Shown here: positions 41,134 through 46,490 of the stretch, in pieces
How the letters are laid out: each line of letters begins with the position of its first letter
Position numbering within the stretch: the first letter of the stretch is position 1
Source: Octopus vulgaris
Taxonomy: Eukaryota
Assembly: GCA_951406725.2 (NCBI GenBank)
Contig: OX597818.1
Span: 80,042,001 to 80,106,000 of the forward strand
Length of the DNA stretch: 64,000 nucleotides
Direction of reading: 5' to 3'
Program-made: the position numbers and the translations under genes
Notes under the pieces: generated by a model
The model's database searches: none
Seen by the model: the letters and a program-made list of their open reading frames with translations, nothing else
What the model was told of the DNA's origin: nothing

Positions 41134-41192
41134 ATTCCAGATCCCGGATTTCTAGCTCTGCAAAAAAAATTCTTTGCCTTCATCAGTGGAAT
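41134..41192 (-). ncRNA. Putative type-I hammerhead ribozyme, intact core
   Basis: Minus: auucca-CUGAUGA-aggc...gcua-GAAA-uccggg-AUC-uggaau; 6-bp helix I, near-palindromic helix III. Confidence 0.65.
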
Positions 41193-41308
41193 ATATGCAA
41201 ATAGTACATAAATAGAAATATATATATATAGTTGTTGTGTGTATGATATATATATATATATATATATATATATATATATATATTTGTATTTATGTACTAT
41301 TTGCATAT

Positions 41309-41367
41309 ATTCCACTGATGAAGACAAAGCATTTCTTATGCAGAGCCAAAAATCCGGGATCTGGAAT
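41309..41367 (+). ncRNA. Hammerhead motif, mirror copy with G12 to A change
   Basis: auucca-CUGAUGA-agac...gcca-AAAA-uccggg-AUC-uggaau. Confidence 0.5.
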
Positions 41368-41720
41368 TATCCAATAATTTTTTTGCTAGTTTATTTTGTC
41401 TCTTTGTCTTCTCTCCTGGAGCTATATGAACATTTAATGTAGTTTTAGTCAAGTTTTGGCTAGCATGGTAGTATCTCTTTTTTTTTATCTAGTTTCAGCT
41501 CACGAGCTGTGGCCATGCTGGGGCACCGCCATTTCGATACCTTTAATTATAATTTTTATTACCTATGTGGTTTTTATTCCCATGCTAGCCACCTGATATA
41601 ATCGGTATTTTGAATAACGATCTTATCCTTATTTATATAAATATATATATATATGTATACACACACACACACACATATATATATATATATATATATATAT
41701 ATATATATATATATATATAT

Positions 41721-41838
41721 ATATGCTAGATCTGAAGATTGGCAATATAATCGTTTTAATATGGTATTGTATTTAGAGACATTCTATTTCAGCAACATCG
41801 AGGAATATGTTGTCGTGAAACGCGCGTAGAAAGTATAT
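41721..41838 (+). ncRNA. Hammerhead-like motif with long helix II
   Basis: CUGAAGA-u-uggcaauau...auguugucg-u-GAAA-cgcgc-GUA; palindrome ACGCGCGU; proximal helix I is decayed. Confidence 0.45.
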
Positions 41839-42000
41839 GATTTGAAATAAGAACTGAAGGTATTAATTTTGATAATTTGGAATAAGAATTGTAGGTATTA
41901 ATTTTGGTAACTTTAATATTTAGTCCTATATGTACCTATTGTGGATAATGTCGTTCAATGATGATTGAGTTACTTGATGGTGATTCTGTCTCTTAAACCT

Positions 42001-42299
42001 ATAGATAGATAGATAGATAGATAGATAGATAGATAGATAGATAGATAGATAGATAGGTAGGTAGGTAGGTAGGTAGGTAGGTAGGTAGGTAGATAGATAG
42101 ATAGATAGATAGATAGATAGATAGATAGATAGATAGATAGATAGATAGATAGGTAGGTAGGTAGGTAGGTAGGTAGGTAGGTAGGTAGATAGATAGATAG
42201 ATAGATAGATAGATAGATAGATAGATAGATAGATAGATAGATAGATAGATAGATAGATAGATAGATAGATAGATAGATAGATAGATAGATAGATAGATA
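42001..42299. repeat. Compound (GATA)n/(GGTA)n microsatellite
   Basis: Alternating blocks, direct inspection. Confidence 0.95.
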
Positions 42300-42511
42300 T
42301 GTTTCTTTATTAGCCACACAGGGCTGCACACAGACAGAACAAATTACAAGGTAGAGCTTATAGATAGATAGATATGAGTTCAGCAAAAATTTAGATTCAG
42401 ATGAATATGGTACTTAAGTTGAGGCAACAGAATTTAGTACGGTATTATCCATTCAATTTCAAAATAAGGTGATTAGAATCAAAATAAGCAACAAGGATAT
42501 CCGGAGGATAA

Positions 42512-42597
42512 TGCAGTACGATCGTTTCACGCAACTTTATTTAATTGAACAATTCAACCATTACATCAATATAAATGCAAAGCAATCCTCAACTGCA
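42512..42597 (-). ncRNA. Hammerhead-like motif (C3 to U) in a Penelope-like remnant (~42375-42620)
   Basis: Minus: ugcag-UUGAGGA-u-ugc...gcg-u-GAAA-cgauc-GUA-cugca; 5-bp helix I; palindrome ACGAUCGU. Confidence 0.55.
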
Positions 42598-43257
42598 CAA
42601 AGACATAGAATTTAATTAAATTAATACAGATGGACACATTAGTATAATTTTTGAATTTGTTCGAAAAGGACTTTCACTTTGAGCAATTTATTCCCACTCT
42701 ATTGACGAGTGCATTTTTCCTGCTTTATGGACTCTTAGACGACTTGCACACACATTGTGAGTGTATGTCTGTGTGTGTGCAAAATAAAAATTGAAATTTT
42801 GAAAAAAATTGAAATGTCTGTATATATATATATGTATATATACTGAGATGTCTATATGTATGCGCCTACCTTTTCCTCTCTTTTTTCTTTACAATATATT
42901 TCAATATAATCGTAGTCTACGCCGTCTGAAAAGCAATTGTAGAAAATTTCATAAAAAATTATCCGTTTTTCTAAAAGTTATGAGGAAACAAAATCAGAGG
43001 TAGGTGAGGCACATTTATGTAGGCATCCCAAGAATAGATGACAATATATTAATGAAATACGTAGGAAAGTTAATGAGAAATTTGTATTCAAGAAGGAAGA
43101 AACGATTGGTGCCTATCCTAACTAGAAGCTGTTGTTAAAAGTGACTGATATAAGACAACCCAGGGTTTTTCAGTGCAAAGTGACTTTATATTAGAGGCAC
43201 GGAGACCAGATATAAATCGTTGTAGAGTGATGAAGGAAAGTAATTATAAGATGCACG

Positions 43258-43803
43258 TGGGGATGTAGCAGAACTCTTTATCACATTCATTTGACTGTAA
43301 TATTAGACATCTTGTCAATTCGGTTGTTTTAACCTTAAATACTGGAGAATTTGGCTCACCAGAGCTTTTCTTGGCATCAAGTCACATGACCCAACTGTTG
43401 GCCAAATTAGTTGCAGGTATTGGTCGGTTTTAACTGCCCAATCGTGTTTTCAACACAGTTTGCTCCCAACGCAGGAAAAAGCATCTTTGCCTGTGGAACC
43501 TACTCATGATTATATAAATACCAGTTTCTCCCGCTCTTGGGGTCTTTAGACCAGCCGCCATTAACCAGACAACATCCCGTTTCACTACTGTCTTCAACCA
43601 GTCGTCGCCCATCTCCGTCGTTGCAGCAACAGACAGCAGACCACAGCCACATCATCCGACCCAACATAACTGAAGTCATTTAAATGTTTATTCCAGACTG
43701 TAATATTAACATAATTCCCTTTGGTAAACTTCTATTATTATATCGAGAGGAATATATCGTAGCTTGTTCAACTTATCCAAATCTTATCGTTCTTCTTTCC
43801 ACA
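43258..43803 (+). mobile_element. Candidate solo LTR
   Basis: TG...CA ends (TGGGGA / TTCCACA), near-TSD GCACG/TCACG, internal TATATAAATA. Confidence 0.4.
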
Positions 43804-43948
43804 TCACGTCATTATAAATGGTGACCTAATAAGCTCTTCTTGTTATATACATATCATATATGTATAGAGTGTTAGGTGTGGTGTACAGATATATATTATA
43901 TATATGACTATATATATATATATATATATATATATATATATATATATA

Positions 43949-44664
43949 TGTAGCGAATCCTGCATGCATAAAGTGGATTCGATCCAACATAGCCAAATTT
44001 AAATCAACACTACTACAGAACTTTTCCCACGGTGGAACAATGGTTTTTCTCTGACAGCAGTTTTACATTTTCCAGATGCCTTTAGCTAGGCTGAAATAAT
44101 GTCTTCACTACTTGACTCTTTCTAACCTCTTCTACTTCACCAAAAGCTACACTAGATAACAAGACCACCAACTAAATCTATTGTTCTCAAAGATATATCT
44201 ATCCTTCTGGATCTTAATATAAGCAAGCACATCCCAAGCAAAAATCAGTCAGTCACATCGTAACAACTCAACGAGGCCTGGCTGACCAACCTTGGTCGGA
44301 GGGAGAACTGAAGTTTTCTGTCAGACAACACCCAACGCTTCTCTCTAGCTTTAATTCTGTTCTCTTACAACATCATGCTATCTGTCTCCACAATTACTAC
44401 TAACAATGAAGAGAACCCAAACTCAAATATTCTACAGCATCTAACTTTCGCGTGCTTTTGGATTTATCATAACCTGCCCGTCGAGGCAAGGTATTGTAAC
44501 GTAACGGTAAATAAATACTTCCTTAAAACTTCATGCATTGTCAATCTTTCATATCTTACAACATGCAATTACAACAACAAATACTTATGGTTACCAATGC
44601 CTCCACCAATATCACATAACATTGTTTACCAATTGATATTACCAAATAAATTATTTCCGTTACA
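43949..44664 (+). mobile_element. Candidate solo LTR inserted in (TA)n
   Basis: TGTAGCGAA...TCCGTTACA short inverted ends, AATAAA just inside the 3' end, TA tracts on both sides. Confidence 0.5.
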
Positions 44665-44686
44665 TATAAATATATATATATATATA

Positions 44687-45075
44687 CTAGCAGTAAGGCC
44701 CGGCGTTGATCGGGTTTGTTTCGACCCTTTAGAATTGGAATTTTTGAAAAGTAAAAATTTTGCATTATGTAGCTTGTTATTCTCTTTGAGTGAACATTTT
44801 TCTGGTTGAAATGCATCGAAAAATGGCGACACAGCAGTATAAAAATCGTAAAAAAATAGGGATTTTCATAGAAAAAAAGCACCTTTTTGATGTAAATAAT
44901 TTTTGGTCTAAACATGGTCCGATTTTAATTTTATCTTCTACGGAATGAAGAGCAAGCCTTCTTCTATCATACTCTCAATTTTGGTCAACTTGCGCCGCAG
45001 AGTCACGGAGGAGATAGTGTCAGTTGAAAGCTACAAAACCTGCCATACACAGACAACTTCAGCTTTATATATAGA
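44687..45075 (-). mobile_element. Short non-autonomous Helitron
   Basis: Minus: A|TCTATATATAAAGCTG...hairpin CCCGATCAACGCCGGG...CTAG|T. Confidence 0.8.
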
Positions 45076-46414
45076 TAGTAAGTATATATATATGTGTGTG
45101 TTGTATTTTTGTATTTGTGGCCCGTTGACTTTGTTTACATCTTATCTTAAACATTTGGTGAAACAGACCGATAGCATTTTGCTACATGTAGGCGGTGGAG
45201 GGCTGTTTGAGACCTGTTGATGACTGAATGAAGCAAGATGAAAGGAATATATAGTCAGTCAATCCAGGCGCAGTTGGAACGAAGGGACATAACTAAATAC
45301 TAGGACAAATCAACCATATCTTACTCGACTATCTTTGTATTGTACACATTGGACGAACAATCCATGATAGAAGATGAAATGGTCACCATTGGTCCGTCTT
45401 TGATTATCAGTAAAATTTATCGAGATAGAAGTAATCCGCAACAATACTCTCAAGATTTAAATATTATGTGATGCTAGAGTTATTTCCCTTAGATTGAGTG
45501 GCTTTTCTTCCGACATTTTTCCTCTTAAGTTCAAATATTGTCACGGTCGATTTTGCTTTTCATCTTTTCGAGGTCAATAAAACAAGTACTAACTGAGGAT
45601 TGGGATTTATGTAATTGACTAACGCCTCCTCTAAAATTACTGGCTTTATGCCAAAGTTTGCAACAATTCATAATGAGTTCTGGCAAATTCGAAAGTAAAT
45701 GTCTCATCTTTTTCTTCGGCCATTGTCTCTTCTATTCTCATGAATCAAAGTTCTGATTTCAAATGCCACCGGGGTCGACTTTACCTTTCGTCCTTTCGGG
45801 GTTGATGAAGTAAATTCCAGTTGAGTACCGTGGTCGATGTAATCGACTATCTCTTCCCCCAAAATTTCAGGCCTTTTGCCTATATTAGAAAGGATTATTA
45901 TTGAGGCCGTTATTATTACTGTCGAGCATAGATATATATACATTTATATTCAATTATATTTATGTATATATATATATATATATATATATATATACATACA
46001 TACCTAGTAATTAGGCTGTTGTGCTCACGATCGAAAGATCATAGGTTTGATTCACTGGCTGGGCAGCGCGTTGAGGAAAACACTTCATTTCACATTGCTC
46101 CAGTCTCCTTTTTGATCAGAGGGATATGTTGGCCTGCTCGCCTAGCCAGTGGGGTGGCGTCATTTCAAGACTAAAACAAGGCAAAAGCGCATTGTGACTA
46201 ATGATGTGTCACAACATCTGATAGCCTGGTCAGTCATATGATGCGTTATATATATATATATATATATATATATATATATTATATTTCATTATATTATATT
46301 ATATTATATTATATTATATTATATTATATTATATTAGAGGAAAAATCAAAACCACGGCAGAACAAGTATCTCAAGTCATTTAGAATAGTTTAATTAGGGC
46401 AAGGTGAATCTGAT

Positions 46415-46490
46415 GTCTTACAGCCGTTTCTGAGATAACCCAAGTAGTTGATTAACATATCCATGCACTGGGTATTCAATCATCAGAGAC
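46415..46490 (-). ncRNA. Putative type-I hammerhead ribozyme
   Basis: Minus: gucu-CUGAUGA-uugaauacccag...uuggguuaucuca-GAAA-cggcu-GUA-agac; helix I gucu/agac; near-palindrome ACGGCUGU. Confidence 0.65.

What the first reader, a model, noticed from the sequence alone, without database searches (positions are those of the whole stretch)
41134..46490. Intergenic cluster of unrelated hammerhead variants with different palindromic helix III and a non-canonical helix II base
Seen: four sequence-unrelated families within ~5.4 kb, each beside TA/GATA microsatellites, with helix III AUCCGGGAU, ACGCGCGU, ACGAUCGU and ACGGCUGU. Several show an extra or mismatched position after CUGANGA (A.A, U.U) and long helix II (up to ~80 nt). 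Different sequences sharing one structure argue against chance. Known: Penelope-associated variants cleave as dimers. Inference: a diverse, microsatellite-targeting ribozyme-retroelement community, where distinct palindromes could restrict dimerisation to the same family.
Basis: partly seen in the sequence, partly recalled or inferred. Interest (0 to 1): 0.75.

Follow-up and report, generated by a model that had tools for sequence, protein, structure and literature searches.

The report
Penelope retrotransposon tails with hammerhead ribozymes
Four different self-cutting RNA motifs really sit side by side here, but they are the worn tail ends of common jumping genes of a known kind (three Penelope-like elements and one short protein-free repeat) that likely piled up because they all land in TA repeats.

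Summary
In detail: five type I hammerhead motifs of four unrelated families lie in 5.4 kb (descriptor: 3 hits against 0.025 in shuffles). Each family is a dispersed repeat with 438-3072 first-look candidates. In longer copies, F2, F3 and F4 follow the end of a GIY-YIG-type endonuclease ORF with Hydra-clade Penelope motifs. F1 is a 505-bp head-to-tail unit with no ORF found, retrozyme-like. The mismatch at the base of helix II is a family trait, not decay, but is in print: U·U in 11 of 14 Hydra families and C·A in PMC8557442 File S2; an axolotl U·U ribozyme cleaves (PMC7229834). Different palindromes are predicted to disfavour heterodimers by 7-12 kcal/mol, no more than random palindromes do, and unrelated families share palindromes, so a selected barcode is unsupported. 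All five window copies carry core or helix damage. Small additions: A·A base, 49-78-nt helix II, 3' ends at internal TA-like words. Cleavage is untested. The scan noted this kind before elsewhere in this genome (e1-8669779, e1-9523589) and in another (e1-9516509).

The parts
41066..41222 (-). F1, inverted 5'-truncated piece; type I hammerhead C3 41186 to H17 41140, A·A at helix II base, helix III AUCCGGGAU; 11-nt core intact, helix II altered
41218..41283 (.). TA tract between the inverted and direct F1 arms; F1 carries an internal TA run at this place
41251..41654 (+). F1, direct copy (part of the 505-bp unit); hammerhead 41315-41361 with G12 changed to A; an unrelated piece of about 55 bp interrupts it near 41481-41538 (by eye)
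41630..41724 (.). TA/CA tract joining the F1 3' end to F2
41719..42006 (+). F2, 5'-truncated 3' end of a Hydra-type Penelope-like element; hammerhead 41732-41828, U·U base, helix II 78 nt, helix III ACGCGCGU; helix I inner pairs weakened in this copy
42001..42299 (.). (ATAG)n tract at the F2 3' end; F3 ends in a short tract of the same unit near 42360-42376
42360..42651 (-). F3, 5'-truncated 3' end of a Hydra-type Penelope-like element; hammerhead 42592-42517, U·U base, helix II 57 nt, helix III ACGAUCGU; C3 changed to U in this copy
46247..46336 (.). TA and ATATT tract at the F4 3' end
46325..46704 (-). F4, 5'-truncated 3' end of a probable Hydra-type Penelope-like element; hammerhead 46486-46419, helix II 49 nt, helix III ACGGCUGU; first G-C pair of helix II broken in this copy

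Best explanation
These are four independent, decayed insertions of high-copy repeats, three being 3' ends of Penelope-like retrotransposons (likely Hydra clade) and one a short ORF-less tandem unit, each carrying a type I hammerhead predicted to cut mainly as a homodimer, and they likely cluster because all insert into TA-rich microsatellites. Shown: repeat families, linkage to endonuclease ORF ends (F2 well, F3 in one long copy, F4 in fragments), tandem unit of F1, microsatellite-flanked 3' ends, variable 5' truncation with inverted pieces. Inferred from known PLE biology: the element's GIY-YIG endonuclease nicks (TA)n, reverse transcription starts inside the RNA downstream of the ribozyme at one of two preferred places and often stops early, leaving the ribozyme-bearing tail. 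Inferred: in tandem source elements two copies of the palindromic helix III pair with each other and the RNA is cut after UH; F1 would be cut to a ~505-nt monomer, perhaps circularised, and moved in trans by a PLE protein. The window copies are likely inert.
For: Copies: 2079, 438, 3072, 1191 candidates, 40 scored each. F2: a search with the upstream endonuclease DNA gave 12 loci, 11 with F2 downstream (one is the query locus); Pfam GIY-YIG E=0.0011; CxCX5C linker in L147. F3: L146 has CxCX5C, YIG, CxxC before E, CxH, 39% identical to the F2 piece, E=2.5e-11, followed by F3 3' UTR repeats and the ribozyme. F4: upstream piece E=1e-4 to F3's, RT motif A-like and thumb-like fragments by eye. These are the Hydra features of PMC8557442 section 11. 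F1: 30 of 30 loci fetched with the junction span tail to head, 25 of 30 run on into the ribozyme, period 505 bp in L153. Tract at 3' end in 22, 25, 18, 14 of 30 copies against 5.2%. Monomer helix III is predicted unstable (+2.4 kcal/mol), homoduplex -11.7 to -15.3; cofolding pairs helix III in trans for F2 and F3 homodimers (8 of 8 nt) and in 0 of 6 hetero pairs.
Against: No intact full-length element was recovered and no RT tree was made. Pfam hit is below the curated cut-off, and 6 further pieces gave no relevant family; a homolog search found none at E<=0.001. F3 linkage rests on one locus; F4's in L150 is interrupted by a mariner-like piece and other loci are fragments. F3's 3' UTR (~3.5 kb) exceeds the <3 kb total reported for Hydra elements. 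Cofolding did not give the active dimer for F1 (0 of 9 nt in trans) or cleanly for F4 (6 of 8, misfolded). The cluster is about 50-fold denser than 60 blind stretches, while its microsatellite content is only 3.6-fold higher. In the one PLE tested in vitro, cleavage needed protein and was not needed for insertion (PMC11167929).
Confidence: 0.85

Rival explanations
1. The palindromes are selected self-recognition codes that keep co-resident families from cross-dimerising.
For: Heteroduplexes are predicted 7.2-12.1 kcal/mol weaker than the mean homoduplex; no trans pairing of helix III in 6 of 6 hetero cofolds; about 20 further motif types with varied palindromes in 1.27 Mb of fetched DNA.
Against: Any two different 8-nt palindromes differ by 9.4 on average; these pairs fall at percentiles 16-89. 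ACGAUCGU also occurs in an unrelated motif (L009), ACAGCUGU in another (L176), ACGU in several. Five of 14 Hydra magnipapillata families share one word. Variants within a family (F4: ACAGCUGU 11, ACGGCUGU 7 of 30) cross-pair fully.
Confidence: 0.1
2. The cluster is a host-used RNA processing unit or a functional multi-ribozyme locus.
For: Local density about 50-fold above blind stretches.
Against: Two of five copies have core changes and the other three helix damage; window copies are 91-95% identical to family majorities, at or near the family mean; mixed strands, no same-family pair in tandem; F1, F2, F3 are chained by microsatellite tracts.
Confidence: 0.03
3. All four are ORF-less retrozymes or SINE-like elements rather than truncated autonomous elements.
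For: Most copies are short; F3 has a long repetitive non-coding region; F1 fits.
Against: F2, F3 and F4 connect upstream to endonuclease-coding sequence.
Confidence: 0.05
4. Chance matches in AT-rich repetitive DNA.
For: No Rfam hammerhead hit.
Against: 3 against 0.025 in the window; 10 against 0-1 in 594 kb of blind stretches, 6 shuffles; family majorities give complete folds; a double change keeps the pair next to the U·U in an F3 subfamily.
Confidence: 0.01

Closest known systems
Hammerheads of Hydra-clade Penelope-like elements (Craig et al. 2021, PMC8557442; read: passages, section 11, File S1 Hydra sheet, File S2 table)
   Same: 3' type I hammerhead, palindromic helix III varying by family, extra base on both sides of helix II (U·U in 11 of 14 H. 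magnipapillata families and in three other Hydra entries; C·A in PLE-X1_cBra), (TA)n insertion, CxCX5C/CxxC/CxH endonuclease; an Octopus member is listed.
   Different: Helix II is 49-78 nt in F2-F4, against loops of 3-10 nt in the Hydra rows; A·A is not in that table; F2-F4 helix III words have no central unpaired base; F3 has a ~3.5-kb repetitive 3' UTR.
Minimal and palindromic-helix-III hammerheads of metazoan PLEs (Cervera and de la Pena 2014, PMC4209133; read: parts 1-2 of 4, no supplements)
   Same: Extra base between A9 and 10.1, enlarged helix II, palindromic helix III, many families per genome, mostly solo truncated copies, close pairs on opposite strands, low dimer-dependent activity.
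   Different: That text names only the 5' extra base; here there is one on each side, and helix III words are 8-9 nt.
Animal non-LTR retrozymes (Cervera and de la Pena 2020, PMC7229834, passages and section 15; Li et al. 2026, bioRxiv 10.64898/2026.07.22.740005, parts 1-2 of 5)
   Same: F1: ORF-less head-to-tail unit with one type I hammerhead; axolotl HHR_Amex2 has a U·U at the helix II base and cleaves (22% as monomer, better as dimer); PLE origin proposed.
   Different: F1 is 505 bp (170-400 nt in the 2020 paper, within 51-972 bp in the preprint), seen only as partial dimers, with PLE-style inverted 5' pieces; circular RNA not shown.
Poseidon element of Anolis, in vitro mechanism (Frangieh et al. 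2024, PMC11167929; read: parts 1-2 of 4)
   Same: Two preferred 3' ends from internal initiation of reverse transcription; AT-rich targets; hammerhead upstream of the start sites.
   Different: There the start sites are not homologous to the target and lie 30-40 nt apart; here preferred ends lie about 90-140 nt apart and often at TA-like words.

Membership tests
Type I hammerhead ribozyme | Core CUGANGA, GAAA, UH in order | tested here: met
   11-nt core intact in 25, 23, 25, 24 of 30 copies of F1-F4; 3 of 5 window copies
Type I hammerhead ribozyme | Helix I closes the motif; helix II forms | tested here: met
   Helix I 6, 5-6, 4 bp in F1, F3, F4; 2 bp plus a 2x2 loop plus outer stem in F2; helix II folds at -8 to -19 kcal/mol
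Type I hammerhead ribozyme | R10.1-Y11.1 pair directly on the core (recalled consensus) | tested here: not met
   A·A in 30 of 30 F1; U·U in 29 of 30 F2 and 29 of 30 F3 positions; U/C opposite A in F4. Same departure is in known PLE ribozymes
Type I hammerhead ribozyme | Self-cleavage after H17 | not testable with these tools
   Only contigs were available
Dimer-type PLE hammerhead | Palindromic helix III, unstable as monomer | tested here: met
   Monomer +2.4, homoduplex -11.7 to -15.3 kcal/mol
Hydra-clade Penelope-like element (F2, F3, F4) | C-terminal GIY-YIG endonuclease upstream of the 3' hammerhead | tested here: met
   F2 11 of 12 loci, Pfam E=0.0011 below cut-off; F3 one locus, E=2.5e-11 to F2; F4 fragments, E=1e-4 to F3
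Hydra-clade Penelope-like element (F2, F3, F4) | CxCX5C linker, CxxC before E, CxH after N, no CCHH | tested here: met
   Read by eye: all three in F3 (L146); linker and CxxC in F2 (L147, L125); CxxC and CxH-like in F4, linker not seen
Hydra-clade Penelope-like element (F2, F3, F4) | RWK and DKT motifs; RT groups with Hydra clade | not tested
   No linked intact RT recovered; a DKT-bearing piece lies near one F2 copy (L148) with unclear linkage; RT motif A-like fragment upstream of F4 in L186
Hydra-clade Penelope-like element (F2, F3, F4) | Insertion into (TA)n; 5' truncation with inverted pieces | tested here: met
   57 of 90 copies end at a tract against 5.2%; inverted pieces
Hydra-clade Penelope-like element (F2, F3, F4) | Generally under 3 kb | tested here: inconclusive
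   No full copy; F3 stop-to-ribozyme distance alone is ~3.5 kb in L146, which may include later insertions
Non-LTR retrozyme (F1) | ORF-less head-to-tail unit with one type I hammerhead | tested here: met
   period 505 bp; no shared upstream sequence beyond the unit and its inverted pieces in 30 loci
Non-LTR retrozyme (F1) | [quoted passage not shown] | tested here: inconclusive
   Two same-strand motifs in 4 of 60 loci, one at unit spacing, and its second core is changed
Non-LTR retrozyme (F1) | Expressed as linear and circular monomer RNA | not testable with these tools
   No run on record as RNA

The most novel reading that the evidence does not exclude
Helix III palindromes are self-recognition barcodes: each Hydra-type family, and the parasitic 505-nt retrozyme F1, is cut only when two RNAs of the same family meet, while TA-like words built into the tail prime reverse transcription on nicked (TA)n by microhomology. 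The A·A base and 49-78-nt helix II would be active variants beyond the published tables.
Probability: 0.12. Interest if true: 0.6.

Novelty: new member of a known kind. Interest (0 to 1): 0.25.

Why it matters
As found, it adds four families to a known class and shows that descriptors and Rfam miss hammerheads with long helix II and a mismatched base; such motifs run at about one per 60 kb in this genome. If F1 is a Hydra-mobilised retrozyme, it is a clean case of the proposed PLE origin of animal retrozymes. The four palindromes make a ready panel to test homo- against heterodimer cleavage, which I did not find reported, and orthogonal dimer-gated ribozymes could be useful tools.

Tried and rejected
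Rfam scan: no hammerhead; all listed matches below gathering score, mostly microsatellite matches to miRNA models. Expression: no RNA holder listed; four runs guessed to be RNA, laid on one F1 unit, cover 27-30 of 30 bins with short diverged contigs, and contigs with end-to-start joints exist, but tandem DNA copies give the same joints, so this is no evidence either way. Protein homolog search with the F3 endonuclease piece: 15 candidates, none at E<=0.001. Pfam on six further pieces: nothing relevant. Naiad origin rejected: endonuclease is C-terminal and Naiads lack canonical hammerheads. Decay as the source of the helix II mismatch rejected. Purifying selection on copies: core change rates 0.015, 0.042, 0.015, 0.018 against flank 0.037, 0.027, 0.026, 0.048 are mixed, and copies were picked by similarity, so no conclusion. 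One row of alignment A1 (L229) was given in the wrong orientation and is ignored. Lunse et al. 2017 could not be read (not held); it may already list the A·A and long-helix variants. Supplements of PMC4209133 and of the bioRxiv preprint were not seen and may bear on the same point. The organism is probably an octopus (inference from 2.8 Gb and chromosome-size contigs, and earlier notes); not tested.
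Full report
Observation. Bases 41066-46704 hold five type I hammerhead-like motifs of four unrelated sequences. A descriptor allowing U at C3 and one unpaired base on either side of helix II finds three, all in this cluster, against 0.025 palindromic hits per shuffled window (40 shuffles). The other two fail through their own changes. Rfam lists no hammerhead.

What they are. The window lies in a 2.8-Gb genome. Each motif belongs to a dispersed repeat: 2079, 438, 3072 and 1191 first-look candidates, 40 scored and 30 fetched per family. 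Copies have variable 5' ends, often with an inverted piece, and preferred 3' ends. For F2, DNA about 0.9 kb upstream in L060 encodes a YIG-type endonuclease end (Pfam GIY-YIG E=0.0011, below cut-off). Searching with it gave 12 loci, 11 with F2 downstream, and L147 adds a CxCX5C linker. For F3, a long AT-rich region with internal repeats leads in L146 to an ORF remnant with CxCX5C, YIG, CxxC and CxH, 39% identical to the F2 piece. For F4, 12 of 15 loci fetched with its upstream DNA continue into the ribozyme on the same strand, and several carry endonuclease-, thumb- or RT-like fragments (E=1e-4 to the F3 piece). These motifs define the Hydra clade in PMC8557442 section 11. I read them by eye and built no RT tree, so clade membership is likely, not proven. 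F1 differs: its tail runs into its own head. All 30 loci fetched with that junction span it, 25 continue into the ribozyme, and L153 has a 505-bp period; no ORF or other shared upstream sequence appeared. It resembles a non-LTR retrozyme with PLE-style inverted pieces.

Helix II base. The mismatch is a family trait: A·A in 30 of 30 F1 copies, U·U in 29 of 30 positions in F2 and F3, U or C opposite A in F4. An F3 subfamily keeps U·U while the next pair changes from U-G to A-U. It is not new in kind. File S2 of PMC8557442 shows U·U in 11 of 14 Hydra magnipapillata families and three other Hydra entries, and C·A in PLE-X1_cBra. PMC7229834 reports an axolotl hammerhead with U·U there that cleaves, better as a dimer. 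PMC4209133 describes the 5' extra base, enlarged helix II, palindromic helix III and many families per genome. A·A and helix II of 49-78 nt are not in File S2; A·A also occurs in an unrelated motif in L003. Lunse et al. 2017 was not held and is known to me only through PMC6765202 and recall, so I cannot say these variants are unreported.

Palindromes. As monomers the helix III words are predicted unstable (+2.4 kcal/mol); as homoduplexes they give -11.7 to -15.3, as cross-family heteroduplexes -0.5 to -5.6. Cofolding of majority motifs pairs helix III in trans for F2 and F3 homodimers and in none of six mixed pairs, but fails to give the active dimer for F1 and F4. So mixed dimers are likely disfavoured. 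This needs no selection: random different palindromes differ by 9.4 on average and the observed pairs sit at percentiles 16-89. Unrelated motifs in this genome share words, and five H. magnipapillata families share one. Searches listed no paper testing mixed dimers (15 of 72 hits listed).

Why a cluster. In 60 blind 9.9-kb stretches (594 kb) the descriptor gave 10 hits against 0-1 in six shuffles; F3-like copies occurred in 5 stretches, F4-like in 4, F1 and F2 in none. Four insertions in 5.4 kb are thus about 50-fold above average. The cluster has 8.6% TA/GATA repeat against 2.4%, and 79 of 120 copies end at such a tract against 5.2% of random windows. F1, F2 and F3 lie within 1.6 kb, chained by tracts. 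By my arithmetic, 0.1-0.3 insertions per 5.4 kb would give 2-140 such clusters genome-wide even without bias. Shared target preference is the likely cause, though microsatellite content explains only part of the excess.

State of the copies. Window copies are 91-95% identical to family majorities. F1 plus has lost G12, F3 has U at C3, F4 has lost the first helix II pair, F2 has a weakened helix I, F1 minus has altered helix II. No two same-family copies share a strand, so no dimer can form in cis here. They are likely inert. Expression could not be judged.

Mechanism. Shown: repeat structure, linkage, target bias. Inferred from PMC11167929: nicking of AT-rich DNA and internal start of reverse transcription at preferred sites, matching the two 3'-end clusters in F1, F2 and F4. 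Three of four clusters tested lie at the most TA-like words of the tail (9-11 of 12 matches; 1-7% of windows score 9 or more), one does not (7 of 12). This hints at microhomology priming, unlike the Anolis element, but alignments slide into TA tracts, so it is a lead only. The role of cleavage in PLEs remains open; in the Anolis element it needed protein and was dispensable for insertion in vitro.

Verdict. Real, explained, and a new member of a known kind. Earlier notes of this scan reached the same class for other DNA; I had reached it before reading them. Interest 0.25.

Noticed in passing
F1, F2, F4 copies (L001-L060, L091-L120): 3' ends fall in two narrow clusters per family, about 90-140 nt apart; three of four tested clusters coincide with the most TA-like words inside the element.
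   Followed up: partly
window 52351-52541: A further F3-like fragment (about 80% identical, downstream part only) with a short inverted piece.
   Followed up: partly
L003, L009, L025, L042, L077, L083, L098, L121, L134, L147, L173, L175, L176, L222, L228: About 20 further hammerhead-like motif types with varied palindromes and helix II of 12-87 nt in 1.27 Mb of fetched DNA; most seen once, some may be chance.
   Followed up: partly
L065, L228, L233: F3 subfamily (about 80% identical) with helix III ACGGUCGU and a double change next to the U·U.
   Followed up: partly
L146 5160-8600; L137, L138, L141: The F3 3' UTR is built of several diverged internal repeats of roughly 650-850 nt and reaches ~3.5 kb.
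   Followed up: partly
L122-L131: F2 endonuclease carries an expandable (AAT)n/poly-Asn tract just before the YIG motif; many copies are 5'-truncated or broken there.
   Followed up: no
window 43100-44650: Stretch of higher complexity with a 165-aa open frame at 44312-44809; looks like another retroelement remnant by eye.
   Followed up: no
window 23125-23913: AT-rich minisatellite of about 30-bp period with higher-order periods of 121-150 bp.
   Followed up: no
window 7326-8029 (-), 8648-9073 (+), 61697-62224 (-): Open frames that look like retrotransposon remnants (gag-like and LINE C-terminal pieces, recalled resemblance).
   Followed up: no
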